Assembly (NCBI GenBank): GCA_030141605.1
Contig: JAQGDQ010000175.1
Coordinates: forward strand, 186,001-250,000
Length of the DNA stretch: 64,000 nucleotides
Direction of reading: 5' to 3'
Origin: Tubiluchus corallicola
Lineage: Eukaryota > Animalia > Priapulida
Part shown: positions 32,216 through 63,546 of the stretch, piece by piece
How positions within the stretch are numbered: position 1 is the first letter of the stretch
Layout: each line of letters begins with the position of its first letter
Position numbers and translations under genes: made by a program
Notes under the pieces: model-generated
The model's input: the letters and a program-made list of their open reading frames with translations, nothing else
What the model was told of the DNA's origin: nothing
The model's database searches: none

Positions 32216-32280
32216 ATGGAAAACACAGGTGGAATATCGATATCTACTCACAATGGACCCTTACCTTACAAGGATATAAG
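32216..32280 (+). CDS. Alternative first coding exon of ACSBG (MENTGGISISTHNGPLPYKDI-S)
   Basis: Acceptor TTTTTGTGCAG at 32193, ATG at 32216, donor AAG|GTTTGA at 32280. It ends in phase 2, matching exon 38390. Confidence 0.5.
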
Positions 32281-33284
32281 GTTTGATATTTTTTTTATGT
32301 TTATTAATATTTCACATAATATTAATAATGTCAAAGCACATTTCTTATTGGAGAAATAGTGACTGGTTTTTCTCTGTAGTTTGGCTGTTTCTCAGTAAAA
32401 GTATTTTAAATTTTATCATAAACTAAGCCACTGAGCTTTGAAGCACTTAAAAGATAGACGTATTTGCCATTTGGTACACGTAGCACAGAGTCGGTATTTC
32501 AAATGACTATCCAATGTAGCTTATATGATTTAAATTAGCCGCTTGTAAAGCAGCTACTCTGTATCCATGCATATCAGTAGTGGTATAAATAAATATAGTA
32601 ATTTTCTTTGCATAACACTGAAACTAAGTTAATCGAACCTAGACACAGTGTAAACACATAATTGACTAGCCAATTATCATGTTTTTTTCTTTTCTTTTGA
32701 ACTTTCAAACTAATAGGCAATGCTTTATTTCTAGTATAGATATAACGTTTTGGAATCAAGTGATGTAGCTGTTGCTGGGGATTCTCTTTAGGTGTAAGGG
32801 TCGCCTCTAAGGGTAGCTTTGTTTTTGAAGGCAAACAATCAGAAACTTTTACCTAAAGTATTTTCTTAATTTTTGTGCACAGTGCAACTTCATACTTCAT
32901 GATTATCTGATGTTTTTCACACAAGGTTTAAGTGTAAGCACAGTAAGCTTTTTTCTGCAATATGAGTAAATGTCCGATGTCTAACTGTTCCTGACATTGA
33001 AGAGGTTGAGTCTGTTAGCTATATTATTAATGTAGTCAAAGTACAGTTTACTATCAAAGGTAAAGGTGTTACAGTGTTTGAACAAACTTAGTACATGATT
33101 TTTGGTAAACAGTTGTAAACATGCACCAGCATCATGCATGGCTGAATGATTTATTACAATCTGGGCTCTCTAAATGTAACTAAGGTCTGCACTTATTTGC
33201 AAAATAAGCATTATTTTAGCAATGTTTTTAATGTTTATGCGCCAACTGCAAATTAGTATGCTAATACATGTATAAAGTATAGCT

Positions 33285-33312
33285 TTATTATTATTACTAT
33301 TATTATTATTAC

Positions 33313-33348
<36 letters not shown>
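33285..33348. repeat. (TTA)n microsatellite
   Basis: Direct reading. Confidence 0.95.
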
Positions 33349-33947
33349 GTCATCCAAGTCTGTTTTAGGAAAATTATTTTGTAACACGAAACTGAAACAA
33401 AGGTATTTGACCATTAACGCTTAGAATAAGAGACCACAAAATGGGCAAAAATGAAGTAACTCCAGTGTTATACCATGAAAGGTGGATCCCATAAAAAACC
33501 TGTCATGCTTGAGAGACTAATATAGATTGGCCCTCTTGTCTGAAGTTTCAGTTAGGAGAATTATTACTTGCCCACTTAGAGTTCCATGTAAAAATATATT
33601 TAGTTGTGCAGTCAGTGATGGTCTGGGCGTTTAATTCTTGCTAGCAGAATATAAGTTAGCACAAGAGTGTATAATGTGCACAAAATGCTCAAGTTTCTGT
33701 AACGTATAGTTTCTATAACGTTTTGTAATAGTGCGCAAAAGTGAATGTTCATCTTATAGTAACTGTATAATATTTTCATCTCATCCGTGACATTTGCGGT
33801 TTTTCTTACAAATTATGAATACCTATATCTGTATTTTTTGTTTTTCTGCTAAATGTTTTTAATTAGGCGAGGTTCAGGATTTCGTTATTGCTGAAACACT
33901 GCCATCAGTGTTAATTATAGTAATTCAAGAGTGCCTAGTAATTTGGA

Positions 33948-34125
33948 ATACAGGTAATAAAGTCACAATTAAAAAAGTCACATGTAAGAGGTCACAAAAA
34001 GCCACAGGGAAAAAAAATTACAAGAAAAAAGAAATAATCCTAACCGTAACTCTAATCCTAACCGTAACCCAAACTCTAGCCAAAATTAATTGTTAACTTT
34101 TTCCTGTGACTTTATTGCCGTGTAC
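33948..34125. mobile_element. Small MITE-like inverted-repeat element with internal (CCTAAC)-like repeats
   Basis: TACAGGTAATAAAGTCACA ... TGTGACTTTATTGCCGTGTA, with internal CCTAACCGTAAC units. Confidence 0.5.
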
Positions 34126-34353
34126 AGTAATTTGACTTATCAAGTATTAAGCCGATACTTGCAACCAGTTTTAGTATTGCTTTTCTGTGTTCATCTTATT
34201 GCCATTTAATTTTTCCATATGTTGTAAATGAGTGGTTTTTCACAAAAGTAATGTGTACTTAGATAACTTATAAAAATCATTCTTGCTTTGGCATGTAGAC
34301 ACACAATTTTTTCTTGAAATGCTTTTTACCATTGTATTTAGTTTATTTCGTAA

Positions 34354-35007
34354 TCGTTGTTGTTTTTCTTGTCTCCACAGACTGTAGGATCCTGCTGGTG
34401 GGTACATGGTATTTAGTGATGTATTCTTATGCAAAGTATTAATCCAGCATTTTTTCAACAAAAAAATTCGTGATAGTTTAAAGCTTCGGTTAGTTATAGA
34501 CAGTTATTGGTACGCATACACTGATATCTGATAAGTGTGAAAAGTGTGTCAGGGAGTGTGCCTAGATGCATGTGAACCATCCACCTGGTGTTTCAGCTCC
34601 TTATCTTTCACCAAGACTACTCAATTCTTGGCATCATTTCCATATTTGATTTTTAGGATTTTAGTACAGCAAACATATGATGTGAACCTACAAACATAGG
34701 ATGCTTCAAAAGTCAGTCATTATTTTTAAAAAAATACTAAAAATTAATAGCTGTTACAACAGGAACCAAATAACAGATTTCTAGCTGGGTCTGGGTCCAT
34801 AAGAGTTTTGGCTTCATTAGTCTAGTGCAAGGATCTTTTATGTATACCTATATAGCAGTATGTTTTTTTACCACTGTAGTTTAGTCTATTCAGCTTCGTT
34901 GTTGTTTTTCTTGTCTTCACAGACTGTTGGATCCTGCTGGTGAGAACGTGGCATTTAGTGATGTGTTCTTATGCAAAGTGGGCATATATGTGTTCTTATG
35001 CAAAGTG

Positions 35008-35010
<3 letters not shown>
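34354..35010 (+). repeat. Local ~85-bp direct duplication (34354-34438 and 34897-34979) followed by a short tandem unit and (TA)n
   Basis: CGTTGTTGTTTTTCTTGTCT(C/T)CACAGACTGT(A/T)GGATCCTGCTGGTG...TTTAGTGATGT(A/G)TTCTTATGCAAAGT occurs twice. (TA)n spans 35012-35047. Confidence 0.85.
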
Positions 35011-35048
<38 letters not shown>

Positions 35049-35199
35049 CCCTGCAGCGATTTTAAGCCTAGAGCTGGTTTAGAGTCTACACGAAAGCAAG
35101 TTAAAACGGAGCAAAACTTTAAAAAAATCCTCATTTTCTGATTACGGGTTTGCCACAAGATGAATTTTCATGATTAGCTGCAAAGAAAATTGAAAATCA

Positions 35200-35320
35200 A
35201 ATTAATGAGTGACTTTTGAAATACCCATTTTACCGAACTCGACGCAAGGAAGGAAATGTGAAAATTAGCATTTAGCTGAGTCTGGATTTGAACCAGGGGC
35301 TTTTAGATTGCAATGCCCAA
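35200..35320 (-). mobile_element. Possible tRNA-derived SINE head
   Basis: Minus strand reads ...TTGCAATCTAAAAGCCCCTGGTTCAAATCCAG (B-box in a T-arm-like stem). There is no complete cloverleaf. Confidence 0.3.
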
Positions 35321-37477
35321 TATAATGAATTGTTATTAAAGCCTTTTGCACTCAAGGTATGTTTTTATTTGTTGTAGTTAGCTTATGAACCTATCATAGG
35401 AAATAATTCTAAGACTAAGGTTCTTCATGCTAGTTAGAATAATAACTAACTAATTACGTTAATCAGTTAATCACTCTGTTAATTCGTTTGGTGGGCTACT
35501 GAGATTGAATTAAGTGTTTAAGACAAATCACATCAATTTATTTTACTCCAGCAATACATATACAATACATCAACATACAATATGATTTAAAAAAACAGTA
35601 TAGGTAAAAAAACATTGATGAAGTCAAATTAACCAAATAAAAGAGTTGCTGTATGACACATTGAACGCTTGGCTTGTTAAGGTGGCACGAATGAGTGAAT
35701 GAAGCCTGCCTTATTTCACTGGTTTTGACGTCTGAGAAAATTGTATATTGAAGTAGCATAATTAATGAAGGAACCTATTGCAAACTACTGACATCGTAGG
35801 TCGTTCTTTTCTCAATTTCCTTTTTGTACAAACTGTTATTGATTAATCCAGTGCATGCACTATATTTCTGTGTGGGGGCTTGGTTGTGTTAATGCATGAA
35901 TATGATGATTGCTATCGATCAAGTTCCCTTTAGTTACCTGACCAGTTAGCTTGCGTTTTTTCTCTCTCCTGTAGTCTATATCTGCGTGCTTATAATGCAT
36001 GTTGTAATTACACAGCCTTGGATTTGGCTTACCTGTTTTTGGATGACTAACCAAACAGAAAAGAACAAATAGTTTGTGTAGTGTTCCTTCCCTTTGTAGA
36101 ACTTATTTATGAAGAAGATACGCGTTTAGTGTTCAGGCGGTTTTATCTGTGCGCGGTATCCTGACATACGTGCATAAGTAGCGTTTACATGAGTATTGAT
36201 TAGCATGTTTGTTATACTCTTGTGATATATTGACATGGATGTCAGCACTTTAACCGTTATCACTATGACAGCTCGTATTTATAAGATTTGTGTGTTTGTT
36301 TAAATTTATCTGCTGTTTATCTGCTGTTTACAGCTGAAGTCGTGCGAGTATTTTTCCAGCTTCGTCTGAAATGATAGCTTTTATGATCGCTTGCGTTCAA
36401 TATTGAATATCTTAATATAATTTTAGCAAGGCTGTTGATTCTTCCTCTAAAAATTTGAGCAACGTACTGCAGTGAGTGTGGTATAAAATTGCTGACTGAA
36501 TATCAACTTCCGGCTGGTTAAGCCCACTACCTAAATAATGAACCCTTTAGCTTTGTGTAACAACCGATTTTAAAAACCTTGGCCCGTCGTTTTCAGCAAA
36601 CTTCTTCAGGGACATAGGGGCATGAGACACTCATGCTGTTTTAAAAATTTATCTTTCTCCATTATGGGACAAGAAGGAAGGAGTGGTGCGAGTAATTATC
36701 GTAAATATATAACTTTTCCTTTTAGTCTTTTACTGGGATCTCATTCGTTGTAGAAGACCTACTTAACATATCGTAAATTTGTAACAATTCGTCACGGCTC
36801 AGTAGTGACGTACATCCGGCCACGATGATGAGGAATTGTCACATTTTCGCAGTAAGTCACCACTGAAGCTCATATATCGCCATAGTAACATTGTCTGCGC
36901 AGCTGCGTAATCAGATCATCATCCGTGCGTAACGCTATCCTAGTTCCACGTTGTACAGTAGTCGTAGTAGCAGAATTATTACTCACTCGTCCTAAACATG
37001 TCGTGTCCGTATTTCATTTGAACTGCTTTAGCCGCTCTGTTTGTGCTTTCTAACTGCGGCCATCGCAGTTCATAGAACCGCTTGTTATAACTAGAAAACT
37101 GTTTGCGTACGTGTAGCGTTCTTAAGTTTTATTTGAGTATATCGTGTTAAGCAAAGCATACTGGATTGCTAATCACTTCATTCATGAATTCATAGCTTTA
37201 ATTGTAAAAAAATAATTTCATAATGTATTGAACGCAAGCGATTCTGACTTGATTTTGATAATGACAACTTTTCCTTGAAAAAAGTCTGACGTTCATCGAT
37301 GAGTTTTTGATTATTTGACTCGTTAGTAGTAACAGTACATGTGATAAAGAAATTGCCGAAATCTTGTGTGAATCACGCGACTCGTAATAATTGCATTGAC
37401 TATAACAGAATTGTAACAGAGTTATAATAGTTATAAGCGTTTTACGGACGATATTTGCAAGGATTGTTCATTGAATC

Positions 37478-40400
37478 ATGGGTGGTAGACATAGCAAATC
37501 TTTTACGCTACAGTAAGTGATGCTTTTGGCAATCTGTTATATAAACTATTTGTCTATAGGCAACTTTATATGTACGTTGATTAATTTAAACGTGAATTTT
37601 GGACATTTTAAACCACGTTTAATTTGGAGATCTTGGAATAAGCACAAACAACGTTTTCTTTTTAAAGTTTCTGACCTGCCCACATAAACATAAATAGCTA
37701 AGTAGATCACCTCTATCCGAACTTCCGCAAATCATTATAATAGATGTATTCAGATGTGATTTTTATAATTGCTAGATCTAGTAAAATGATAAAGAAATGC
37801 GTCTGTTATAGTGCATTCTGCTATTTTTGCATCAGTGTAACAAAAAATCCAAGTTTACGTACAGGAACCATTACGAGTCTTTCACGCTTGGGTATTCCCC
37901 CACCTACCACGTTGCCTGTCAGCTTGGCAGTTTGCCATATTGGCAACGTGCCAAATCTCATAGCGGAGCATTACACCCAGTGTTGGATTCATTAACGTTT
38001 CATAGGAATTTTTTGTCTTCGTAAAGTTACGATCGCATTTAATAACGTTCTTGGGTTACGAAACCTTTGTGAATTCCCTTGTAAGCCTATGAATGTTCTT
38101 GCGAATAAACGGTTTGAAAGAAAGTCATTTTGTGTTTTTTTATTTCAGGTAGTAACAAAATAAAGTACAGTATATTGCAGTACTTGATATGCTATGGTTC
38201 TTTTGTCGTAAATTTATTATAATTTCTACCAGATTTGTGGTACATAAAATATCAAATTTTCCCGAACTTAAATAACTTGAACTTTTTTGAGTTTACTTTA
38301 CTAGCAGTTTCATTTCTGTTTAAAGTTTTTGTTAGCTAAATAAATAATTGGTTTACTGACTGACATACATTTAACCTTTTATTTTCTAGTTCAAATGGTA
38401 GTGTCCCCTTCAATAAAGACTGTTCTAGAAATGGCTCAGCTGTACATGACAATGATGGTTTCGTAGATCAGGAATTACACTACAATAAGGTGACGGCTAA
38501 GCGTCTTTCAAAAGGATTTGTTCATCCCGCACCCGGAGAACCTCAGAATGGTAGGCATTTAAAAAATTTGATATATTTAATTTTTTTCGCCATGATTCAA
38601 TATGTCATGATAATAGATGTAATCAGTCTTTACTGATTCTTTTTTTATGAGTGCCAATATTATAAGTGTGCAATCATTCTTCTATGGAAATGATAAAAAA
38701 AGACTATTCTGAAACATTCTGTCAGTCTTTTGCAGAACATTGATATATGGAACTGATTTTCATTATTATCATTTATTTTCAACTATAAATATTTCGAACC
38801 ACTAAAGAAAAATGCTAAACAAAGGCAACAAAAGGTTAGAGGATAAAAAAGAAAAACACATGATAACAAGATCCTCATGCGCAAAGCAAATTGACATAGT
38901 TGAAAAATTATACCTAACATACTGCAACAAAGTTACAATAAAAAGAAATTTGTGTCTCCAAGCTATTGCATAAATACAACTTCTAGTTTATTTTGGTTGC
39001 TTTAGTGTTTTTTAATGACATGGAAATTTTCCAAATATTTATGTTCTTGTGTATGTTTTTGACGAATCTTATATCGTCCTATGTATATTTTATTTGAGAA
39101 TTTCCAAAAAAATTTTGTGAGATATTTGATTTGTGAGATATGAGTGAATTTAGATTGCTGCATCTCAAAGTTAGCTGTAAAAGATTTTTGTTAGTGTGAG
39201 AAACCTGTTTTTAAAGAATAGCAAAGCAATTAGGCATCCTGGTGAGTGGATAGGCTCCAAGTGCAGGGTTAGTTTGTTGCTTTTTTATTGCTAAGTTTAT
39301 AACTCGAGTAGCTACCAGGTTGCTATTAGGATAGTAATCCTCATATTTTATTTGCCTAAACATGATAACAATAGCTAAGGATTGCTGAACAGATATTATT
39401 CAAGAAAGCGAGGGCCATCAAGAATCACCCACACACTCAGCATGACCATAGTGGGTGGTCCATCAAGGCGCAGATAGTCGGATAAAACTCCAAAGAAAGT
39501 TGCTCTCTAAGTCTTGCCACTGTTGAACTGACTAGGTTCAATTTGTTGTGCTTTGATTTAGTATTTTAAATATGTTGGTCCTTCAAATTTTGATTTTTGT
39601 TGCTACTTTTTCTTTGACTCAATATGTTTTTAGTTCGATTTAATAATTTTTGACTTGATTTGTAAGTTGAATTGCTCATTGGATGTTCTGTTACAGCAAT
39701 TTTGCTTGTGTCTTAGTACCATAACCACTCCGGTTAAGTTTGCAAGATATATTTTTGTATTTTCTCACCCAAATTCCTATAATCGAAGACTGCTTGCTAA
39801 TTACTATTTAGTTACCTGAAAACCTGTAGGCAGGTTTTGCTCTTTTTTCTATTACAAAGTGCTCTTACAAGGTCACACCAAGAGTTAATTTATTTCTATG
39901 ACGCAATTTCTTTCTTAGCTTGGAATGACATTTTTTACTATACCTGTTTTGAAAGTGCATCAATCTGTTGCTCTGAGTCAAAGACACTTGAAATTATACA
40001 GTTGTTATTAAAAGGTTGGTGGCAGTCACTGTAAAGCAAATTTCCATCCTAGAATAGTGTTCTTGTGAAATATTATTTTCCTTAATAAACTTTCTAATTG
40101 TGATTTAATTGCGTTTAATATCAAACAGGTTTACTGTTTATCAACAAAATATGTTGATCAGGACCTCTCCCACTAAGCCATTGCCAGTCTGCAATATACA
40201 TATGAACTTTCTATTATTAATTATTACAAGTTATAAATAACCATAAAATGGCCTGTAATAATCTGCCTCAGTTCGCATAATAATTTTATGTAGTGTCTAA
40301 GTAGGTGAGTCTAAGCTGTTCACAGTTATGCTTTTTAGAAAAGTTTAAAACATAATAAAATTGTAAGCTATTGTTGTATTTTAGCTTCTTTAAATTGAAA

Positions 40401-43400
40401 ATAATGTTGTTTTTTTAAATATTTTATGACACAAGATCAGATAAGTCATGGTATTTGCAGGAAACTTGAGCTGCATCATTTTTATTTTCTGTATTTTTGC
40501 TTAAAAATCCTTGTACCATTATTTTTAGGAGTTCTTCGTCAGAAAACTAATGTTAATGCTAAATGCAAAAATTTTGAACTTTCTATTTAGGTCCCGACGA
40601 GGTCTTGCCAGCCACAGAATTCTACACATGTGATCCTCACGTCCCAGTTAGACTGCGTATTGGTGACGTTCATCCCTTTTCTGAAAAACCACAATCTGTA
40701 CCGGGGTTGTTAGCAGAGAGAGCAAAAGAGTTTCCTCACCATCCTGCGGTGTCAGTGAAAAGAAATGGAGAGTGGGTGACGTGGACATACAAGCAGTACT
40801 ATGAGGACATAAGAAGAGCTGCTAAGGGCTTTATACAAGTAAGATAATTATGTAGTTCGAAGTTTTGCACTGTTTTTCCTTTTTCCTTTTCTCTTTGAAA
40901 CCCTTTGCTTCATTGACCTCCAGTTAGTAAAGTTTCTATAATGACTAATATCTAAGAGTATTGTTTGCTTTGAGTAACTTGACCTTCTACATTTCTACTG
41001 CTGCTTACAGAACATTATCTATTTGTTTATTGTTTAACAAGACATACCAGTGAGAAATTGTGTTTCAAATTATGTACTTTATGCTTTACTTAAAAAAATT
41101 GTAATTTATTTTAGCTTGGGCTGGAACCATATCATGGTGTTGGTATTCTTGGATTCAACTCACCGGAATGGTTTATATCTGATTTTGCTGCTATATTTGC
41201 TGGGTTAGTTTTTTTTTCTATTTTGACATTTCATTTCAGCCTAGCTACAGTTTATGTTAAGTACTAATACTCTGTTTTCTCTTATTAAATACACATTAGC
41301 AATGCAGGTTTTTATATATTTTAGAGGTCTAGCATCTGGTATATATGCTACTAATTCACCGGAAGCTTGTCAGTTCGTAGCTGCAGACTGCGAGGCTAAC
41401 ATTATCGTTGTTGAAGACGAAAAGCAGCTGATGAAAATCTTACAAGTGAAGAAGGATTTGCCTCATTTAAAAGCGATTGTACAGTATTTAGGAAACCCTC
41501 CAAAAGAAACTGGTGCATACTCCGTAAGTATATTTTATGTTTTTATCAACTTTTTTCTGATAAGTTCATGCTAAAGTAGAGCATGTAATGGCCATTAAGT
41601 AAAGCTAATTGAGAAATTGTTTAACAATAAAATTACTTTTAGTGCTAATAATTGTTTTTCAATAATTTCACTGTAGGAACATCCTGTTTCTCAAAACATT
41701 ATTCAGATAATTTGCACAAACCTTTTTTCAGCATTCTAACTACACTTTTAATTGAAACAAAAAAATCACAACACTCTGACATACAGTAAGCTTTTCACAC
41801 CGAATCTAAAAAAGAGAAATGGCTATTGGCATTATACATTTGATATCAGATTTTTTCCTATTTTTTGTTTGCTGATAATTCATTTCTTTGTTGTTATTTG
41901 TGGAAAATTAAGGTCATGGATTATGTATGTATGTATGTACATATGCATATGTGTGTGTTTGTGTGCATGCGTGCGTGTGTGCATGCGCATGTGTACATGT
42001 GTGTATATATGTGTATGTATTTTTTCTGATGGAATAAAAGCAAAATTATGTTTCATATCCATGTCGATGTGACAGTTCATAAAAGTTGTGCATAACACGC
42101 TATACGCATTATATTTCTATGGAAAGTCGCCGACCCATTTGACAGCTTGTTCTACTCTTTAACTTATTGTGTATTATGTGCTGCTTGACTAACATAAATG
42201 ATGTTTTCGCAATTATGCAGTAAAATTACCCATTGTTAAATATGTTTTAGTGGTCTGAGCTTATGGATTTGGCATCAAGTGTACCTGATGCAGTTTTGGA
42301 TGAGCGAATTCGAACACTTGCACCTAACAAGTGTTGCACTCTTATATATACCTCAGGAACTACAGGAACACCCAAGGGTGTCATGCTCACCCATGATAAT
42401 GTGAGTACTGTACATTGTTTTCTATGTGGCGAAGCTAAATGTTAAGAAGTCCAAAAGCAATATGAGGTTGGAGAGCTACTAAATCACTTTTAATAGCAAG
42501 TGTTAAGCCTAATTTTGTTAAATTTTGTTTTTATAAAATATAATGTTTACATCTCTTCTTTCATGTGTACTATAGATAGTTTTACTTGAGCATTGTGTAA
42601 TCATGTATTTTTCTCTTACAGTTAATCTGGACAGCTAATCGCTGTGTAGAGTCTGTTTTTGGTAATCTTAATCGCAGATGTCAAGATGTTCTTGTCAGCT
42701 ATCTGCCGCTTTCACACATAGCCGCACAGGTACAATCATTTTCTAGTATTCATTAATCCGTGAGTTCAAGTAGTAATAAAATCTAATTACTGTATATCAT
42801 TTGAGTCTAATTAATGCCTATCATTTTGCACTCGTGTCCATTCAAATCATATCAGAGGAAAAGCAAACTATTCATTTAATATAACTCACCTCTGCAGCTC
42901 CTTTCATCATTTCGACACTGATTATGACTTTAGATTGGCAGATTCGTGTAAGGAACCCAAAACTGTGTTATTCATACACTTATTTTCTACACAACTTTTT
43001 TTTGGCTTGTGCTTTAACTATAATCACTATTGCAATGCGATACAACATATATATACTATATACACAATGAGCAAAAACATATAAGCATCAATAGCTAAGG
43101 ATACTAGTATCATGCTATAGAAAAACTCTGTGTTTGCAGACTTGTTTCTCATGAATCCATTCTGAATTTTGTTTTTTAATAACATTAACATACATTTGGA
43201 TTGCTTCTTTAAAGTGATTAATTGTGGCTGCTTCCATGGCCCATTGGGGTAAACAATTCCACAGATCAATTATCCAATGGCTGAAAAAGTATGTTCTTAA
43301 ATCCAGCTTCGCTGTATTCTTGTACAGTTATAACTGGCTTCGCATCGTCCTCCCGTGACTTTTAAATGTGAAGAAGTTTCCAACGTATAAGCATTTTCCT

Positions 43401-46400
43401 ATATAAGAAAGCATAGGCAGTCGGGTACTGGTTGTTCAAGTCTGTTGATATAAAGTTGTGTTAATCTTGGCTTGAAGATGTCAAAAGAGTGGCAGTTATA
43501 CTTTGAAATAAAGGGGCTCAAGATTAACATTCTTATGTATATTATTATTGAATTTCCTAAAACTTGTATATTCTTTTTCATGCACAATGGTTTTAGATTG
43601 CTTCAAAACAGAATATGTTTCAGTACTTTAGTGTTAACTGCACATAGCTCATTTAGCACAAACTGCATAACTTTGTTTTATTTTTGTGTGAATAAATAGA
43701 ATGTGTTACTCATTGCTGCAGCAAGAATATTCTAACTTGCAAATAGTGTCATTTTTCCTTACAGAAAAGTGTAAATAATGTATAGAAATTTTACAAAAAC
43801 AACTCTTTCATGAAATAATTGTTTCAGATGCAGGACTTGTTTTTACCAATTGTAGTTTGTGCTACAGTATGTATTGCTCAGCCAGATGCACTCAAGGTTT
43901 GTATTATTGTGATTACATTACAGCAGCTATCTAAAAACACAGCACTCGCACTTCAGTATTGTTTTGCTTGTGCTGTGTGATTTAGATTGGCTGAATTCAT
44001 TGATTAAAATATTAAACAGATTCATGTACTGTGTTTCAGTTGGTTGATATGTATTGTGGTATATCATTGGCGGCGAATGTTTGTTTTGCTGCTCCTGATG
44101 CATTGAAGGTTTGATATATCTGACATATTGTTGTGTTATACGTACAGCTATTTACGTGTTTCACGTTTTAGCTTAGTTTCTTGCTTTATTAGTGGGGATA
44201 CAGGTTTGATACTCGCATTGCCAGTAGGGAGATGGTGCTTAAGTTGAGCTTAGATAAATATTCTGTGTGTTTGAGGAAAAGATTGCAGATTACTTATAGT
44301 TGCTAAAATAAAAGTAAAGGTGGCCGGTATGCAAATTTTATGTTCATCTAATTCAGACATTGTCTTCTTAATGCTTGGTAGTGCTCGGTCCTATATAAAA
44401 GACTGTAAGATATTATTTTCAAAAGTTCGTCTCTTAAATCGTAATTTTAAATGATACAATTTGCTGACGATCTCTCATTTAGTATTATAATTATTTATCA
44501 TGCTGCTAGATGATACTGCTGTCTGTATTACTAAATGTTGTTGACTAATGGTGCTGCGGGTGAAGGGCGAGGCCGTAGTTTGTGCATCTCTGTTTGTTAT
44601 ATTAGCAAAGAATGTTTCTGTTAAACAGCCCTCAATGATTTGGCTGGAAACTGCTATTACATCATGATGTGTTTCTATATAATATGTTTGTTGTGACATG
44701 GTGTTACGAGTTTAGTTCCATTAAAGCTTCGTAGTTGTGCTTTTCTGGAAAAATTATTTTTAGATTTTGTGATAAAATTTGTTGTTCGTTAGTAATTGCT
44801 GTTCTCTGGTATGGCAAGTGGAACGCATTATTAGTTAATATATTTTTTATCTCATTAAAATTCATTAATTAACAACCTGTTCTCTTTGCCAACAATTTGA
44901 TTAATACTTTTCACTTATTTGAAACGTTTGTGTAATGGGTGTTAATTATTCAGAAATATAGAAAGCATTGTTATTGTTTTTATAATTTGATTTTTTGTCA
45001 TTTAACAGGGTACATTAGTCGATACAATGAAAGAAGTTCGGCCTACAGTATTTATGGGTGTGCCTAGAGTGTTCGAGAAAATTCAGGAGAAAATGCAAGC
45101 AGTAGGTCGCTCAATGACCGGATTAAAAAAAGCAATTGGTACCTGGGCAAAAGAAATCGGATTGAGAGGCAACATGGCATTAGTTAATGGGTAAAGTGTT
45201 TGTAATTATAATAACTCATTTATCCCCACAATAACTCAATGTTCTACCAGTTTGCAGTTATTCAGTTTGTTGTTGAGCTAAATAAATTTACTTTGCAGTT
45301 AGTGGTAAGTGTAAACATTTGCAGCTGTGTAAATATATGTCCTAGTCATCGACTATTACTGTTGTTTTTCACATGCAAACATTCTTTTTATTCTATGCAC
45401 AGAACACGTTTTTTCTGGGCAAACATTTTTTGCGCATGTGGACGATGAATTGCAACATGGCAGCAAAAACTGTGCATAATCATTAGAAAATTCGCTTTAT
45501 TGCTTAATTATTTTAGGTTAGCTTACTCTTTGTGCCATTTAATCAATATTCAAATCTAATTTGTTGATCTACTTGCTTTAGTTAAAAATTAATTCTTGTA
45601 GCGAATCACTACCATGGGGCTGGACGATAGCAAATGTTTTGGTATTCAAAAACATTCGCAAAGCTTTGGGTTTGGACCGTTGTCACATGTTAGTAACTGG
45701 AGCTGCGCCAATTACTCGAGACACACTTGATTATTTCATGAGTATTAATCTTCCTCTGTTTGAGCTCTACGGAATGAGTGAATCAACAGGTGAAAATGTT
45801 TTTCTTATCCGTGTTTGTCTTTTTGAGAGATTTATGCCCATTTTGAGAAAACTTATTTGCACGTTTCGCCCATGCTAAGTCATTACCACATAGTAGTCAT
45901 TTAATTACAAACTTTTCACTTTAGTGGCAATTTTTGGCTTTGTGTAAGATTCTAAATTTTATAAAGAGTTGCTACCTCAGCATTAATCACTGTACACTCA
46001 TATCTCGGTTTGCGGAACCTCATTGTTTAAATGTTGTTACAGAATCTGGTAACAAACCTCAGCTCATCGCAGAAAATGTATTATTTTGTCGATTTGTACC
46101 CAGATGTTGTTTTTTATTGCTAGCAGATCTGTTTTTCTTTCGAGCAGTGCACATTAAAATTGTTTTGTTTGAAAAATACTTGTTCGTACAAATTAGAAAT
46201 TTCATCACAAACCTCCAATCTTTCTATAACAAAATTATCAATTGTCCACTTGAACTTGTTTATAAAGTAATGCATTCTAAAATCATTGCGTTCTTTCATT
46301 TTGCGTGGATTTGACTTTCCACAATATCCCAATTGCTTAGAATATCATGCCGACTGACGCATTTGTACAAACAAAACAGGTGAACTATAATTTGGTCATT

Positions 46401-49400
46401 ACGGTTAACCTATCCATTTATAAGAAACATGTTGCTGTGGACTGACCTGCCAATTAACAACTGTTTGCTGTTAGAATAAAAAATTATATTCAAATTTGCT
46501 GTCTGTTTACTGTTGAGTCATAAAAATTGATTTCATTGATCTGTTTTAGGTCCACATACTGTTAATTTACCTACAGCTATACGGGTTGGCAGTGTTGGCA
46601 GAGTGTTTGTTGGTGCAAGTAATAAAATTTTTGAACCTGATGAAGATGGTGAAGGAGAGGTTAATATATTAGTATTATATTATTTACTAATATTGTCAGT
46701 TAGTCTTCTTTTTAATCAATTATTTGCAAAAACATTGAGCATATTATTAAGTTGATATACAATAATAAGGCAGCTGACAAGAACATATGCAGTCATGAAG
46801 AAAATTATATCCACGTAAGGATTTTTTCTCAAAGGCTGAAATGTGTCACTCTGACTATAGATACAGTGCAAAACTGTATGAATTTTAAACTCTACCTTAC
46901 CATTACGACAGCAGATTGTTTTATGTATTCTGTGGCATATGAACTTTTGCTTTAATTTAACTGATTAAAGTATTGCTTTGCTTCCTTTCTCACGCTATTT
47001 ATTGTAACTAAAGCTGGGAATATTTCATTGTTCATTAGTCCAATTCTTACATTACATTTTTAATGCATGGGACCACTACATCAGGTATTAAATATTTTGT
47101 GAGGGAACATTTTTTGTTGCAAACTTGCTGTGCATTCGTAATTAATTATCATGTGCTCTTTGACAGCTTTAAGAAATCACAAATCTGTCTGTAGTCTTGA
47201 AAAATACAAAAACATAGCACCATAACCGTAAGTGTTTTGAGTCATTATGTCAGTTATTATAAGCATTGAGGTGGGTGTGTTTTGCAGGTTTGTATGCGAG
47301 GTCGTCATGTATTTATTGGTTATTTGGGTGCCAAGCAAAAGACAGAAGAGACCATAGATGAAGATGGTTGGTTACACAGTGGTGATATAGGCAGAGTAGA
47401 TTCTGATGGATATGTTTATATTACCGGCAGGTAATGATATAATTTTACTATTGATAAAAACCCAAGATAAAATGAGTTCTTGACAGATAGCTAATCAACC
47501 TCATCAGCAACAGTAAAATAAGACATTAACTTGTTGTGGTTTGTCAGGCCAAAAGCAACACCAGTTAGGCCAAATCTGAAAGTTTTTCCTATTGCAGGCA
47601 CTAGAGCTGTTTTCTAAGCATAATTCAGATTGTTATTATTTACTGAGGTCATTGAATACAACAAAATCTTCAAAGAAAACATGGTTTTTTATGTGACATT
47701 ATTTGCAAGCAAAATTTCTGCAAAATAACATTACTAGTGCCAAATACCTTGGCATTGCTTTTAGTTAAATACAGTTGGATGTTTGGTTACTTGGCATACA
47801 GCTGTCAACAGTCTCCTAAAATGCACAGTTCATTGTTACAAATTTAAAGTAGTAAATGTGTAGCTTTTGAAATAAATTCAGTGAGCTACAAGACTGTCAC
47901 TTTTATTGGTTTGAAGTTTTCATTTATCAACTATTTATTATAGGATTAAGGAACTTCTTATAACAGCTGGTGGCGAAAATGTTGCTCCTGTGCCGATTGA
48001 GGATAGGATGAAAAAAGAGGTTCCAATTATCAGTAACGTGATGCTTGTGGGTGACAAACGCAAATTCATCTCTATGATCTTTACATTAAAAGTATGTTTG
48101 CTCCAAAAAGTGTCTTAGTTTGTATTTAATTATTTTGCTTATATGCTTATTTTATCATACATTTTCCATTGAATTTTATCAGTTTTTTTACAATTCAGCA
48201 CTCAGCAACTTGCAATCCAACACTCAGCGACAAGGCCTGCGCAATGTAAATCATTTGGGTGGAATCAAAATCAGTCACTTTGTCGAGGATAGTCATCTAT
48301 AACATACCAGCAGACATGTTTCAACTATGTTAAGTTGTGTATAAACCTTCTTCAACATGACAGATAACTATGGGCAGTACAGCAGATAAAACTTCTCAGA
48401 ATGTTTTTAATCAATCCACACCAGGCACTGTTTCACTTCGGTGGCTAAGCAATTTATTGAACTTAAATTGTCCTTTTCTATAGGTCCAGGTTGATTTGGA
48501 AACTGGAGAACCATCTGATAATCTTACAGACTTCACTCGAGATTGGCTGAGAAAATGTGACAGTGCAGCAACAACCACAGCAACAGAAATAATTCACACA
48601 AAGCCAGAAAAGGTGTGGCAAAGCTTTAAACTATTACAACTGTTTTTGACCATGTCATTAAACAAGCAATATCTGCTAACTTTCTTATACAATTTTGAAT
48701 CTTGCAAACCAAAATCCAGCATATAATGGCAAATACTACGCAAATTAGGTGGTCATAGCGAGGGATGAGCCGATCAGAAAAATAATCCACGATCGGCAAG
48801 CAAACTTGCATATCTGAAGAGATCGGAGATCGGAGTCATGATACACTTTAATATCGGTAATGGTAACGTGGCCTAATGATGTGCAGTTAAGTGAAATCAG
48901 ATCGTAATTCATCTTATTTTATGTCGCACTTATCCACCCCTAACCAAACTGTTGCAAAGTAACAAATCAGCTAACCGACAGAAGACGGTTTTTATTCTTT
49001 TCTAATGGATTGTGAGGTGCTAACCTGCATTTAGTTTACATGCTTACTCTGAAAGGTAAAATTAAGCATTTGCAGACACTCAAATTGCTTGCCATTGTTA
49101 TCGCCGGAGTAAAGAAATTACGTCTGATAATGCTCAGCAGCAACCAAGCAAAATGATCTTGAAGGGCTGAACCAGCTGGGATTGTATATACGACTCATGT
49201 CTGTTAGCTTTGGAAAGCTAATATTATCTTAGTGTATTACAAAGAATTACTGGTCTGACTACTATTGCCTATAATTAACAAGTTTACATTCTTTTCATAA
49301 CTTTCATCAGACATCAATTAAAGCAATTAAATAGTTATATTATTAACTTATTTACTTACACTTGACCTACTTTCAACTCTCTGTGATTGGCCATAAGTCT

Positions 49401-51354
49401 AGCACTACTGCTGAACTTTGTGAAACCACATCAGAATTTCTTTGTGTTTCACTTACTACTCACATGTGCATTTAAGCAGTTAATTCAATTAATGGCCATA
49501 AATATTGTAGAAGGCATTTAAATTACAAATTTTCACTGATGCTAAATTTTAAAGTTAACACCTGAAATAAATTTTCGCTCTGAGTACATTTTTTAATAAA
49601 GTTCTTATTTTGTCATTTAGTGTCTAATACGATCAGAATAAACACTTATGGTCATTAATCTCTCCAAAAATGCTTTCTTTATTTAATTTTGACTTCTACA
49701 ATCAGTCTTAAATTCATCGCTTGTTGCGGCAATTGTCATGCCATCATATCAGATTAGGTCTGAGATCGGATATCTGATCGGCCAATAAGCAAAAATAATC
49801 TGATCAGATTGAAAGAAGTTTGACATCCCTGGTTGTAGCAAGATTGGCCCTGGTGCATCATTAAGACTATACAGCAATTTTGGTTGTGCTTTTTTCATTT
49901 TTAACTTTACTTCTTTTGTTAGGTGTTCAAAGCAATTCAGGATGGCGTAGATCGTGCTAATAAAATGGCCGTATCTCGTGCGCAGATCGTACAGAAGTGG
50001 AGAATTCTACCTGGCGACTTTTCCATACCTGGTTTTGAATTAGGTATACCTTTTGCTTTGTTCTGCTGTACTTAATTTGTTATTATTTTATTTCTTCATG
50101 TTAATGTGATTATGTGTTTCTGTAATCTGCTTAGTCAAAACTCAGGAATCATACATAGATTTTATATACATAAGGCAACACAGTTACCCATAAGCACCTC
50201 GTAACAAATACCACAAACAATTTTGTTATATACTTGTGCTTCTTGGCTACTTGTGAATATTTCCTATTTTCAGCTTGCTCTGCTGTTTACAGTACAACAC
50301 TATAGCAAACATGGTTATTGTGCACACATTGGTAATGCGAACTCACAAAAAAGAACAAACTTTCTTCATTCGTTTAATTAATATAATCGCTTTCATTACA
50401 GCGTACTCGGTTATTGCGTATTGCGGACTTTTTGTTGGGCCTATTGCCTGTTTATAATGTATTTAGTTTTTATTGCATACTTTGCCTTTGCTAGCTGTTT
50501 GCAAATTTATTAATGGTTAAATTTAAACCATCATTCTTGGTGCTACAAAAACGTTGTTAACATGCAAATGATGCACTATGCAGAGTTGTTAACACGTCGT
50601 ATCTTAAGGTCATTTTGTCTATTTAGCTGTATTAAAACAATGAGTCACTCCTCCGGGGGTTTCGTGTTTTAAGTACTTAAATTGGCAGCTCACTCCTAAG
50701 ATGAGATGTTTCATCAAGTGATGAATACTACTGCAATTACTTTGCAAAAACTCATACAAGAGCGAAACAGAAATTTTATGCTGCGAAAACTGACTTACTT
50801 TTTTAATCTCATTGATTTTATACTTTATCACATAAGTTACAACTGAAAGTGTGCATGCAATTTAATATGAAACATTCATTAATTTTTAGTTTATTGAAGT
50901 CAAATAAACTACTTTTCATCGAATTTGAATATACTAGAAAGTAGGTGATTTTTGATAGCACATTCCAAAAGCACTTTACATCCTCTATGAAGCCAGATAT
51001 TGTACTTTATTTGTGCAAGTTAATTAATTGCTTGCCCATCTAGCAGTCGTATCCATATTATTAGTCCCATATGCTTATAAAGTAGCTCCGTTATAGAATG
51101 CTTTTTTCTGGGTCCCTAGCAGGTTCTCTGTAATGATATTATACTGTATTTCAATTTAATAGTTTCTATACAGTACTTATTTTTAACTTTTATTTTTCAA
51201 ATGATTAATAAAATATATTTAAACTTTTGTTACCGTAGCAAACTTAATAACTAAATATGTTGACTTGTTGTTCGTAGGTCCAACACTGAAGTTGCGTCGG
51301 CCGATCGTGCACAAGAAATACGCGGACATCATTAATGAAATGTATGCAGAGTAG
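37478..51354 (+). CDS. ACSBG2: Long-chain fatty-acid-CoA ligase, bubblegum family (ACSBG1/2-like), ~718 aa
   Basis: Exons: 37478-37512, 38390-38550, 40591-40838, 41115-41203, 41325-41523, 42251-42400, 42622-42729, [43828-43896 or 44040-44108], 45009-45190, 45602-45789, 46550-46659, 47288-47430, 47944-48091, 48484-48612, 49923-50043, 51278-51354. Phases are consistent. Motifs: [83 protein letters not shown]. The first two exons are less certain than the core, and the symbol only denotes family (ACSBG1/2 co-ortholog). Confidence 0.93.
41923..42018. repeat. TG/TATG low-complexity microsatellite
   Basis: Direct reading. Confidence 0.85.
43120..43480 (-). mobile_element. 3' end of a CR1-like LINE
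   Basis: Minus strand translates [40 protein letters not shown] (CR1 FFSxRVxxxWNxLP...FK signature). A related 3' tail lies at ~55897-55995. Confidence 0.7.
43828..43896 (+). CDS. ACSBG exon 8a ([23 protein letters not shown]), one of a tandem exon pair
   Basis: gtttcag acceptor, AAG|GTTTGT donor, 69 nt, phase 0/0, matches the ACSBG segment between [10 protein letters not shown] and GTLV. Confidence 0.85.
44040..44108 (+). CDS. ACSBG exon 8b ([23 protein letters not shown]), paralog of 8a
   Basis: gtttcag acceptor, AAG|GTTTGA donor, 69 nt, phase 0/0, same xxD...VCxAxPDALK pattern as 8a. Confidence 0.85.
48760..49831. mobile_element. hAT-like MITE
   Basis: Ends GAGGGATG/CATCCCTG, CCGATC/GATCGG subterminal repeats, degenerate 8-bp TSD GTCATAGC/GTTGTAGC. 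Confidence 0.6.
50290..51147. mobile_element. Tc1/mariner (Tigger-like) MITE; a related copy begins at ~5647
   Basis: TA|CAGTACAACAC ... GATATTATACTG|TA. The 5' part matches 5647-5805 (TATAGCAAACA, GGTTATTGCGTA). Confidence 0.55.
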
Positions 51355-54430: not shown

Positions 54431-56010
54431 AAAGTGTAATAGTAATCTTAATAATCACTGTGTGCAATGTTAGTGTGCATCCAATTTAGTGCGCACCATA
54501 TGTCAACACTATACAACAACAAATACAGGTTCTTTTGGGCATCTAACACTTTGCGTGGCTTCTCATTTTTGACGTTGCCTATCAACATGCAAGCTTCAAG
54601 TTTATGTCATTCAAACGACAAGTTTTAGATTTCCGTGAAAGCGTCGTTACAAAAATTGCCAATTGCCAACTTTGAGTTCTTCGTTATTTTTAACACTGGT
54701 CATAAAAAGTACTTTGATGGATGAGGTACTTTGTAGAATGATTACTTTTAGTCATGTCCCCTTTACTAGGCCCTATGCTTCAAATTTTGCAGTAAGGTAT
54801 ACATAATATTTCAGATTTGGGGCCTATAACTTGATATAGTTGCTTTTTTGCAGAAAAACTTGAGCTACTACTTGAATGTTCTATAACAGATTATGTTGTT
54901 TATGTGCTTGACACATATTATATTATCACATTTGTATAATCATGTATGATTATTTTAAGCAACTGAGCAACCATTTATACACGACGACAAGTTTTGGTTT
55001 ACGTAAATTATTGTAATTTGGCGATTGGAAGGTGTCGAGATATTGCTATCTTTTCAATACATTCTTCTTACATTTACTGCCCTGATTATATTTAATTGCT
55101 GCTTGGTTGTGCTTTTTTGTAGTCTACTGCAGTTTCAGTTTGGCTGCAGTTAGGCTTACTGTAAGTTCAGCTATGTTTCGGTTGGACCTACTGTAGTTTT
55201 AACTAACCTTTAACTCACCTTTGCAGCTACCCTCATCATTCTGACACTTGTTATGGTATTAATTTTGGTAGCCATTGTGTATATATCGTACACACATTTT
55301 CTAAACAACTTTTTTGTGGTGCTTGCACTTTAACTACTATGATTATAACAATTTTATACGTTATATACACTATGCACATAGAGCATACATATAGGCATCT
55401 ATAACTAATGGTACTAGTAGAGTAATACCTCTGTTGTCGACCGTCTCTGTACTCGTACAAATCGGTTTTCGATGTGAAAGTTCAAGTTGAAATTGTCTCT
55501 GCTCTCGACCAGAATTTCAGTACTCGACCAACCGCCAAACACATGATGAACGCATATGCGCCGAGCCGAGTAGAGCCGAGAGTAGCCAAGCACAACATTT
55601 GAATCACCTAACATCGCTAAGTGTTTTCTCCGCTTTTTTCATGCAGGAATAATTATGTTTTTCTTTCTAAGTAATTCTGTTATGTTTTTATTATCAGTTA
55701 TATCATATCTACTGCTTAGATAAACATTTTTGCATTATTATATTTTGTTTTAGTAATACTTTACAGTTCATTTGGTGCTTGAGAATGGATTATTTGCTTT
55801 TACATTATTGCTTATGTGAATAAATGATTATTTCGGTTTTCAAACACTTAGGAACGAATTATGGTCGAAAACAGAGGTGCTACTGTATCATACCGCAGAA
55901 AACTCAGTTTTTGCAGACTTGTTTCTCATGAATCCAATCTAGATTTCGTTATTCAATAGCATTAACATACGTTTGGATGGCCCTTTTAAACTGGATCTGT
56001 GGTAATGTTT

Positions 56011-56049
<39 letters not shown>

Positions 56050-56743
56050 GAAATTTTTGAAATTTCCCTGCAATTGTAGGTCTGTGTTTGTCCAGCGAGC
56101 ATTTATTATGCTGTTGTTATATAATGTGGTTAATGACAGTGAAAACATTTTGATAATACTGGTTTCTCATTACTGCCTTTGTTTTTTGTGACTAAATGCC
56201 TGGACTTTCAGCACTTTTTGTGTTGTGTATTAGTTGGTAGTGTGGGCATTGAAAACATGCCAGCAACAGACCTACATCCATACTAACTAACTATATCAGA
56301 TGTACAATGAGCAAAAGGATTCTGTACTGCCCAAATCTACAAAACTACATAAGCGAATTTTTAACATTTCATTTAGTTACTAACTCAAGATATGCAACCC
56401 TCATAATTATGGAAAGCGAAAAAGACAGATCACTGATTTGTTCTAGTCTAAAAGTATTTTTAAAGGTCATAATATTATTAACACTTTTGCACAACATTGT
56501 TTCTTATCACCACTGTTTTACAAGTGTACTACAAGTACACTTACAAGTTTTACTTTGTATTTATTATATACCTAAATCCTGCTTGGAATGCCGATTCCAG
56601 TTACAGTTTGATGCTGTTTTATTTTGCTGATCCTATTTTTTGTTTCAGATTCAATGACTTTCAGAAGAATCATACACATGATAGTATTAAACAAGTGAAC
56701 ATCCGTATAAATACAAAACTTTTTATTCAGTAACAAAGGAAAT

Positions 56744-57632
56744 ATGGAAGGTAGTCAGCCAAAAATCAAATTTCTAAAAAGGAAGGCTGAAACGTCGCAC
56801 GAAAATGATGCACAGATCTGTAATACGAAATTTAAAGGAGGTAACCTAGGTAGACACATCTTGTGATTAATACTGTAACTTTGTTTGCTCAGCAGCTTCT
56901 CTTTTAAAATTCGTATAATAGAACTATAACATTTTGACGCAGATTGTTCTATTAATCGTGAGTCTAGTAAATGGTGAGCCTACTGTACTAAAATTGAATA
57001 ATTCATTATTTAGTGTTATAGCTGCTTTAGTGAAATTGCAAAATATGTTAGTCAAAATAGAACTCTGTTCTATAGTGCTTGCAGTTTTTTCACAAACATT
57101 TATTAATACTAAGATTATTAAGCATCCCTTACAAAAACCAAATTGGGTGTCATTTAGATTGTAGAATATATTATAATTGTGAAGATAGCTTTCCAGTTGT
57201 TTGTGAATGTGTCATAACATTTTTGAAAAGACTCTTAGTCAGAAATGTATCTGCCCATCTATAATTGCCTAGGTTAGCATTTATCATATTGAGTGACTTG
57301 TCATTGGGTTTTTTCATATCGCAGATGTGTGTCAGTACAAACTGTGTGGCTATTCTGCTGAAAGGAAAGGAGAACGGGATGAAATGCAGGATGCATGTGT
57401 GATAATAGATGACTTTCTAAGTTGCTATTCAAATTCTCATCGTTCCATGTATGTTTGTTGGCATTTCGTTTCTCTAAAGACTGTTAATTTTTTTACATGT
57501 TTATTTAAAGTGATTCTTAAAAAAATGAATTGGTCATTGGCTTTGAACTTTTTACAGGTCAAGAACAAGAAGAAACTTGTCACAGCTACTAGACTTTTCT
57601 GACATTTTTAGTCTTTGCTTAATATTTTATTA

Positions 57633-57665
<33 letters not shown>

Positions 57666-63081: not shown

Positions 63082-63546
63082 GTTAGTTACTGAAGTAAAA
63101 GTTATAGTTTTCAAAATATTTAAGTATGGGCAAAATTATTTCATTTAAACAAGATACTGAAGCAGGTGAATACTTCATATTGAATGCAAGTTCACATATT
63201 ACTGCTCAGATGTTCTTCAGTCTTAACTAGTACCATGAAATTTGTTAGTTTTCACAACCATATTCCAAAATATAGAATTTAGAATTCACCTTAGCCTAAA
63301 ATTTAGCAGGAATAAAAAATTATCAGAGTAAAAGCAGGGCTTCTCTACTGTGCTTGTGATCCTGGCTTGTTCTCATGCATGACTTCAGAGAACTATATTT
63401 ATTATTTATTATAATTGTTATGTTTTGCTTTTATGCAACTATAAGCTTGGATTTTTGCTTTGCTGGCAGTTGGACAGAAACGTGCTATGTATTCAAACAT
63501 ATTCCCGTTCAGTCTGCATTTTTCATTATTGATCGTATTACATGTA

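What the first reader, a model, noticed from the sequence alone, without database searches (positions are those of the whole stretch)
43828..44108. Tandem duplicated, apparently mutually exclusive exons next to the fatty-acid gate of ACSBG
Seen: two 69-nt phase-0 exons with the same gtttcag/AAG|GTTT boundaries, both stop-free, encoding diverged versions of one segment ([23 protein letters not shown] and [23 protein letters not shown]). Known: this segment directly follows the YLPLxH gate motif lining the acyl tunnel of acyl-CoA synthetases, and vertebrate ACSL6 uses mutually exclusive gate-region exons. Inference: this ACSBG independently evolved two switchable substrate-tunnel variants. Including both exons would duplicate a structural element, so exclusivity is expected. 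I am not aware of this arrangement in the bubblegum family, but cannot check.
Basis: partly seen in the sequence, partly recalled or inferred. Interest (0 to 1): 0.82.

Follow-up and report, generated by a model that had tools for sequence, protein, structure and literature searches.

The report
Swappable pocket exon in bubblegum ligase
A fat-activating enzyme gene (ACSBG) of what is likely a priapulid worm carries two intact, very different copies of one small exon predicted to line the fatty-acid pocket; they are likely spliced in one at a time to give two enzymes that would prefer different fats, and database records of scallops, mussels and oysters already swap a larger, overlapping stretch of the same enzyme.

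Summary
Two 69-nt, phase-0 exons (43828-43896, 44040-44108) follow the YLPLSH exon of an ACSBG gene that groups with Priapulus caudatus. They are homologous (11/23 aa), far above chance, and both score within the family's range while simulated neutral decay almost never does. A spliced contig from a ~93%-identical relative joins the gate exon to exon A and by one letter fits A-to-next-exon. Exon B has no RNA support here. The segment is predicted to be the post-gate helix plus a core strand; its position 2 (Gln/Val) aligns with 4CL Ser243, a substrate determinant. Scallops, mussels and oysters swap a 56-57-aa gate+post-gate block (4 of 20 clusters). None of the 20, P. caudatus included, swaps the post-gate exon alone, and no paper on it was found. 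So this is a new variant, likely convergent with bivalve ACSBG and mammalian ACSL1/6. The scan noted similar pocket cassettes in other acyl-CoA ligases. Exclusivity and substrate shift are untested.

The parts
43828..43896 (+). Exon A, 69 nt, phase 0/0; post-gate helix, beta strand and loop, version with Gln at position 2 and Pro at position 7
   Evidence: spliced to the gate exon in X2 contig 9
44040..44108 (+). Exon B, 69 nt, phase 0/0; homologous version with Val at position 2 and Gly at position 7
   Evidence: no RNA cover found
43897..44039 (+). 143-nt intron between A and B; branch-point-like TTGAT 40 nt before B; no gate-exon remnant
42622..42729 (+). Single-copy gate exon (36 aa) ending in [10 protein letters not shown]
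   Evidence: both flanking junctions seen in X2
45009..45190 (+). Single-copy exon after the pair; starts with a Gly codon (GG)
42251..42400 (+). P-loop exon (YTSGTTG-PKG)
   Evidence: junction 42400->42622 in X2
32216..51354 (+). Whole ACSBG coding span: 32216-32280 (first coding exon, by eye, unconfirmed), 38390-38550, 40591-40838, 41115-41203, 41325-41523, 42251-42400, 42622-42729, [A or B], 45009-45190, 45602-45789, 46550-46659, 47288-47430, 47944-48091, 48484-48612, 49923-50043, 51278-51354; 728 aa with either exon
   Evidence: best blastp hit P. caudatus XP_014675418, 59% identity, 892 bits; tree

Best explanation
Exons A and B are two intact copies of one ACSBG exon, likely born by an old tandem duplication in a priapulid-like lineage and likely spliced in one at a time, which would give two 728-residue enzymes predicted to differ in the helix lining the fatty-acid pocket and so likely in the fats they activate. 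Shown: the duplication, open frames and splice sites of both copies, family-level conservation of both, and the gate-to-A junction in a relative's contig. Inferred: use of B; exclusivity (two copies would repeat a helix plus a core beta strand, none would delete them); a pocket role (by alignment to 4CL and the AlphaFold model of the P. caudatus orthologue); a substrate shift (by analogy to ACSL6 F/Y gates). How exclusivity is enforced is inferred by exclusion: not frameshift decay, probably not steric hindrance, no significant RNA duplex, so most likely regulated competition between two equally weak AAG|GTTTG donors.
For: Homology far above chance. Profile scores A 44.4 and B 42.2 bits lie inside the leave-one-out range 32.7-71.0 of 98 non-redundant natural segments (above 13 and 8 of them); neutral decay to the observed 38/69 nt identity reached that score in 0 of 20,000 runs from either exon, and in at most 3 of 20,000 at 50-54/69. 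Flanks share only the splice signals. X2 contig 9 joins 42400->42622 and 42729->43828 and stops matching at 43897 (a G): this fits a jump to 45009 (GG), not to B (starts with T) nor intron read-through (one-letter inference, last 17 letters not placed). AlphaFold model of P. caudatus ACSBG (mean pLDDT 84.9): segment 342-364 = end of helix 338-351 plus strand 354-357. HMM alignment to 5BSW puts position 2 on Nt4CL2 Ser243, named a substrate-determining pocket residue, Gly in the fatty-acyl ACOS5 (preprint 10.1101/2024.10.10.617703, passages). 8 of the 12 A/B differences lie in positions 1-10, the helix. Bivalve isoforms swap a block containing the same segment, one version at a time. ACSL6 gate isoforms differ in activity and the gate-less form is inactive (PMC2868784 abstract); F-gate prefers DHA (PMC13184358 passage).
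Against: No RNA shows exon B or the B junctions. X2 is only guessed to be RNA and differs by about 5-7% in exons. Both annotated P. caudatus isoforms carry one and the same segment. Both A and B sit in the low tail of family scores, with rare residues (A: Gln2 1/98, Ile16 0/98; B: Cys6 2/98, Asn13 0/98, Ala18 1/98), which could mean relaxed constraint. Positions 1-13 vary widely across single-copy orthologues, so the differences need not be adaptive. No ACSBG or ACSL structure was found in the PDB, so pocket assignment rests on ~19-20% identical relatives, and no contacts could be measured on the model.
Confidence: 0.6

Rival explanations
1. Both exons are used mutually exclusively, but the isoforms have essentially the same substrate range and differ only in stability, rate or expression pattern, or not at all.
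For: The gate aromatic and His are shared. The segment varies among single-copy orthologues (mean pairwise identity 11.4/23), and A vs B (11/23) is no more different than that.
Against: Position 2 aligns with a known pocket residue and changes from polar Gln to Val; Pro7/Gly7 changes the helix end; bivalves keep 2-3 versions of the same region; ACSL6 gate swaps change activity.
Confidence: 0.2
2. Exon B is a dormant or rarely used copy, and only A is normally spliced.
For: Only A is seen in X2. P. caudatus annotation has one form, slightly closer to A (12 vs 11 of 23; Pro7). B has a short 18-nt AG-exclusion zone.
Against: B keeps frame, splice sites and family-typical residues despite 31 nt differences and unrelated flanks; neutral decay reached its score in 0 of 20,000 runs. 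B has the consensus Phe16 and Ala11 that A lacks. X2 also misses the single-copy exons at 45009-46659, so its silence on B is uninformative.
Confidence: 0.12
3. The pair is not an independent invention but the remnant of the same ancient gate+post-gate block duplication seen in bivalves, with the second gate half lost here.
For: The bivalve block starts and ends exactly at this gene's exon boundaries (after HDN, after DALK). The Pinctada model P0316 shows two blocks in tandem; losing gate 2 would give this layout. A and B are as far from each other (11/23) as from P. caudatus (12 and 11/23), so the duplication is old.
Against: No gate remnant between A and B. A and B share Cys15 with the same TGT codon, found in 2 of 98 natural segments and not in P. 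caudatus or the bivalves. A/B do not pair consistently with bivalve versions. No swap in the listed isoforms of Lingula, Lineus, Tubulanus, Haliotis rubra, Glandiceps, Branchiostoma, Stylophora, Folsomia or P. caudatus, so shared ancestry needs many losses. Database annotation can miss exons.
Confidence: 0.2
4. A and B are included together or B is an optional add-on cassette (751-aa form).
For: A+B (751 aa) and neither (705 aa) are both in frame, so nonsense-mediated decay would not remove them; the 143-nt intron is long enough to splice.
Against: X2 contig 9 does not continue with B's first letter. Doubling repeats a helix plus a core strand.
Confidence: 0.05

Closest known systems
NCBI isoform sets of pteriomorph bivalve ACSBG2-like genes: Mizuhopecten yessoensis XP_021368673/XP_021368675; Argopecten irradians X1,X3 vs X2,X4; Mytilus edulis/galloprovincialis/trossulus (three versions); Saccostrea echinata XP_061172776/7 and S. 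cucullata
   Same: Same gene family; isoforms identical except for a block that contains this 23-aa segment; outer boundaries match this gene's exon boundaries; one version per protein.
   Different: The bivalve unit is 56-57 aa and swaps the gate motif and the helix before it as well, always linked; here only the post-gate 23 aa is duplicated and the gate exon is single. Known from annotation only; no paper found.
Mammalian ACSL1 and ACSL6 mutually exclusive F-gate/Y-gate exons (PMC1543647, PMC2868784, PMC13184358)
   Same: Tandem mutually exclusive exons in the gate region of a long-chain acyl-CoA synthetase, frame-preserving, with a measured effect on activity and DHA preference.
   Different: Different subfamily. 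The 26-residue ACSL exons contain the gate consensus D-x4-(Y,F)-LPLAH-x2-E and swap the gating aromatic; here the motif (LPLSH, no Glu) is constant and the swapped part begins five residues after the His.
Priapulus caudatus ACSBG2-like XP_014675416/7/8
   Same: Closest orthologue: 59% identity, 892 bits, sister in the tree (96 SH-aLRT), same 36-aa gate-exon length.
   Different: Its two listed isoforms differ only at the N-terminus and carry one post-gate segment; its genomic DNA could not be searched for a hidden second exon.
Vertebrate paralogues ACSBG1 and ACSBG2
   Same: The Pro7 (A) vs Gly7 (B) contrast echoes coelacanth/amphibian/turtle ACSBG2 (Pro) vs ACSBG1 (Gly) in the fetched sequences.
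   Different: There the versions are separate genes. Many fish ACSBG2 have Thr or Cys at that site, and an icefish skipping isoform suggests a different exon boundary (gate motif and post-gate in one 35-aa exon).

Membership tests
ACSBG (bubblegum) acyl-CoA synthetases | High whole-protein identity to ACSBG members and placement among them | tested here: met
   44-59% identity over about 600-710 columns to named ACSBG proteins; sister to P. caudatus ACSBG2-like. The tree has no non-ACSBG outgroup and is the quick version.
ACSBG (bubblegum) acyl-CoA synthetases | ANL motifs intact (P-loop YTSGTTG-PKG, LPLSH, YGMSE, SGD..GR, C-terminal Lys) | tested here: met
   All present in the in-script translation; homologues carry PF00501 + PF23562. 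Motif names recalled.
ACSBG (bubblegum) acyl-CoA synthetases | Watkins Motif II clustering with ACSBG rather than ACSL/SLC27 | not tested
   Criterion read in 10.1101/2022.03.28.486105 (passages); no ACSL or SLC27 sequences were fetched for the comparison.
ACSBG (bubblegum) acyl-CoA synthetases | Long-chain acyl-CoA ligase activity | not testable with these tools
   Needs an assay.
Homologous mutually exclusive exon pair (tandem exon duplication) | Adjacent, equal-length, same-phase, homologous exons with canonical splice sites | tested here: met
Homologous mutually exclusive exon pair (tandem exon duplication) | Both copies under purifying selection | tested here: met
   Profile scores and neutral-decay simulation; indirect, no dN/dS.
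Homologous mutually exclusive exon pair (tandem exon duplication) | Each exon seen spliced in, never both together | tested here: inconclusive
   Gate->A seen, A->next fits by one letter, B not covered.
Homologous mutually exclusive exon pair (tandem exon duplication) | An enforcing mechanism (frameshift decay, steric hindrance, docking/selector pairing) | tested here: inconclusive
   Frame does not enforce; branch-like site about 100 nt from A's donor; best duplex not significant.
ACSL1/ACSL6 F/Y gate-exon switch | Swapped exon contains D-x4-(Y,F)-LPLAH-x2-E and exchanges the gating aromatic | tested here: not met
   The motif lies in the single-copy exon 42622-42729 (PMC1543647). Works like it, is not a member.
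Bivalve ACSBG gate+post-gate cassette | Duplicated unit spans gate and post-gate together | tested here: not met
   Only the post-gate exon is duplicated vs the 56-57-aa block in bivalves.

The most novel reading that the evidence does not exclude
The post-gate helix of fatty-acid-activating enzymes is a hotspot for switchable exons: mammals (ACSL1/6), pteriomorph bivalves (ACSBG) and priapulids (ACSBG) each independently put mutually exclusive exons on it with different boundaries. The priapulid pair is the cleanest natural experiment: it leaves the gate untouched and swaps only 12 residues, so it would pinpoint what sets chain-length or unsaturation preference in the bubblegum family, and may do by splicing what vertebrates do with the ACSBG1/ACSBG2 paralogues.
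Probability: 0.4. Interest if true: 0.6.

Novelty: new variant of a known kind. Interest (0 to 1): 0.4.

Why it matters
No ACSBG structure was found in the PDB, and what sets ACSBG substrate preference is poorly mapped. Two natural isoforms that differ in 12 of 728 residues, with the gate constant, would give a direct assay of which residues shape the acyl pocket. With the bivalve cassette (in annotation, not found in print) and ACSL1/6, it would be a third, likely independent, use of exon duplication on the same helix. The splicing class itself is textbook and the idea is already present in ACSBG annotation, which caps the surprise.

Tried and rejected
No whole genome is held for this window. 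Run search: no RNA holder on record; X2 is an addition by species label. Exon B and exons 45009-46659 have no X2 cover: uninformative. Homologue search with exon 40593-40838 found nothing at E<=0.001 among 54 candidates. The HMMER search of representatives gave mostly fragments. The metagenome scan returned 80 loci, apparently mostly transcripts or intron-poor genes; 35 hit exon A or B and none at two places. Mola and Clarias sequences with different gate regions differ throughout or are separate genes, so they were read as paralogues, not isoforms. RNA pairing: the best of 8 region pairs was 43947-43975 with 43409-43436, -26.3 kcal/mol, which would loop out A; it was reached by 0 of 20 and then 8 of 150 shuffles and by 1 of 28 other window stretches, so it is not significant after 8 tests. 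The inverted repeat 43150-43170/44006-44026 has one arm in a repeat also found at 55899-55993: rejected. A recalled FadD13 Thr214 chain-length mutant would align to position 2, but searches did not find it in the library, so it is not used. PDB search with exon 45009 alone gave one unrelated hit. The careful tree did not finish; the quick tree is reported. No tree of the 23-aa segments was built (too short). Literature searches for ACSBG exon switching listed nothing on it; PMC7538616 mentions the terms separately. Subscription papers are outside the library, and preprint supplements (the S3 alignment of 10.1101/2024.10.10.617703) were not seen.

Full report
Observation. Exons A (43828-43896) and B (44040-44108) are as described: 69 nt, phase 0, tgtttcag acceptors, AAG|GTTTG donors, stop-free. 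They lie 143 nt apart and share 38/69 nt and 11/23 aa. Identity by codon position is 13, 15 and 10 of 23, six of the 11 shared residues use different codons, and the flanks agree only at the splice signals. A vs B scores 57 (BLOSUM62); the next best of 104 comparable AG..GT segments scores 10 and the next best of 28,188 six-frame 23-mers scores 25. An X1 contig covers both exons and the intron with no difference. No other exon of the gene has a second copy in the window, the gate exon included.

Gene and organism. A 15-exon coding model (A or B counted once) gives 728 aa with either exon, 751 with both and 705 with neither, all in frame; the first coding exon is a by-eye guess. Named hits of two homologue searches are ACSBG/bubblegum proteins or generic long-chain ligases. 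The best is Priapulus caudatus XP_014675418 at 892 bits, next 811. A 40-row tree with the gate block removed groups the window with Priapulus (SH-aLRT 96; quick IQ-TREE search, no bootstrap, no outgroup). The animal is therefore likely a priapulid, though not close to P. caudatus (59% identity). Earlier scan notes suggested a priapulid; the tree is my own test.

Are both copies alive? Against a profile of 98 non-redundant natural segments (from 181 distinct ones; my filter itself required Asp3 or the conserved ending), A scores 44.4 and B 42.2 bits, inside the leave-one-out range 32.7-71.0 but in its low tail (above 13 and 8 of 98). Random substitution down to the observed nucleotide identity kept such a score in 0 of 20,000 runs from either exon, and in at most 3 of 20,000 at milder divergence. 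Both copies thus look conserved as protein. This is indirect; no dN/dS was possible.

RNA. The run search listed no RNA holder. Run X2, added by species label and guessed to be RNA, has spliced contigs about 93-95% identical to the exons: joints 42400->42622, gate->A (GT..AG at 42729/43828), and two later introns. Contig 9 matches up to 43897, a G, and has 17 unplaced letters left. That fits a jump to 45009, which starts GG, and not B, which starts with T, nor intron read-through; it is a one-letter inference. B has no cover, but neither do three single-copy exons after it, so nothing follows from that.

What the segment is. In the AlphaFold model of the P. caudatus orthologue (alignment of 66, mean pLDDT 84.9) the segment is residues 342-364: the last ten residues of helix 338-351 that follows the gate His337, strand 354-357 and a loop. 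Foldseek places the model in the ANL fold (4WV3, 4CL, luciferases); no ACSBG or ACSL chain appeared. The profile alignment to tobacco 4CL2 (5BSW) puts the His on H237 and position 2 of the exon on S243. A preprint names S243, Gly in the fatty-acyl enzyme ACOS5, among the substrate-determining pocket residues (10.1101/2024.10.10.617703, passages); Y239, also in this helix, affects Km (10.1101/2021.07.06.451337, passages) but falls in the constant exon. Position 2 is Gln in A (1 of 98 homologues) and Val in B. Eight of the 12 differences are in positions 1-10. The pocket role is a prediction from distant relatives.

Enforcement of exclusivity. Frame does not enforce it. The only branch-like motif near B's acceptor is 40 nt upstream, about 100 nt from A's donor, too far for steric blocking by the usual ~50-nt rule (recalled). 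The best intron duplex was not significant. Both donors read GTTTG, as does only 1 of the other 14 donors, the unconfirmed first exon. Regulated competition between weak sites is the remaining, inferred, explanation.

What is known. In ACSL1 and ACSL6 a mutually exclusive pair of 26-residue exons swaps the gate motif itself (PMC1543647, parts 1-2 of 4 read); the isoforms differ in activity (PMC2868784, abstract and passages) and the F-gate prefers DHA (PMC13184358, passages). For ACSBG I looked up 20 sequence clusters (at most 15 members listed each: 15 of 16 for Branchiostoma, 15 of 27 for Mytilus, 15 of 23 for Stylophora; one cluster had a single member). Four show isoforms identical except for a 56-57-aa block from after HDN to DALK: Mizuhopecten, Argopecten, Mytilus (three versions) and Saccostrea. 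Mytilus trossulus X1/X2 and Magallana/Crassostrea records show the same pattern, and a Pinctada model holds two blocks in tandem. Gate and post-gate halves always travel together there. None of the 20 swaps the post-gate segment alone; P. caudatus, Lingula, Lineus, Tubulanus, Haliotis rubra, Glandiceps, Branchiostoma, Stylophora, Folsomia and the vertebrate clusters show no such swap among listed isoforms. Five literature searches found no paper on ACSBG exon switching.

Origin. An independent origin is favoured (about 3 to 1): the unit differs, no gate remnant lies between A and B, A and B share a rare Cys15 with the same codon (2 of 98; absent in P. caudatus and bivalves), A/B do not pair consistently with bivalve versions, and intervening lineages show no swap. 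Against it, the bivalve block has the same outer boundaries, the duplication is as deep in sequence as the split from P. caudatus, and annotation can miss exons.

Verdict. A real, old, probably functional duplicated exon pair in the pocket helix of an ACSBG. The kind is known (ACSL1/6 in print, bivalve ACSBG in annotation); this unit and lineage appear undescribed. Use of B, exclusivity and substrate effects are untested. New variant of a known kind; interest 0.4.

Noticed in passing
window 34323-34437 and 34865-34979: A 115-nt duplication (83% identical) in the first ACSBG intron; each copy holds an AG..GT-bounded 55-nt segment (34381-34435, 34923-34977). Neither keeps the coding frame, so at most UTR or poison exons.
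   Followed up: partly
window 36780-37120: A CpG-richer patch inside ACSBG intron 1 with an ATG and a GTAAGT donor near 36853; possibly an alternative first exon or promoter. P. caudatus isoforms differ at the N-terminus.
   Followed up: no
window 1950-2708 (+): Intronless 252-aa ORF for NAD(P)H-hydrate epimerase (YjeF_N, NAXE-like); exact sequence not in the protein collection.
   Followed up: partly
window ~6200-17300 (-): Multi-exon ANAPC5 gene (Pfam ANAPC5 hit at 14998-15363).
   Followed up: no
window ~56600-63200 (+): Multi-exon PP2C phosphatase gene, ILKAP-like by recall (Pfam PP2C hits).
   Followed up: no
window 43122-43216 and 55899-55993: Dispersed repeat (84% identical over 95 nt), multi-copy by X1 depth, in the intron before exon A.
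   Followed up: partly
proteins P0123/P0050, P0314/P0447, P0328/P0453/P0455, P0393/P0475, P0316: Pteriomorph bivalve ACSBG genes carry 2-3 swappable gate+post-gate blocks in NCBI annotation, not found described in print; worth its own study.
   Followed up: partly
proteins P0025 vs P0030: An icefish ACSBG1 isoform lacks 35 aa spanning the gate motif and the post-gate segment, like the gate-less ACSL6 form and suggesting a different exon boundary in vertebrates.
   Followed up: no
run X2 laid on window 42251-50044: X2 shares the species label of X1 yet differs by about 5-8% in coding exons, with a 3-nt deletion at 48569; may be a cryptic species or a mislabelled relative.
   Followed up: no
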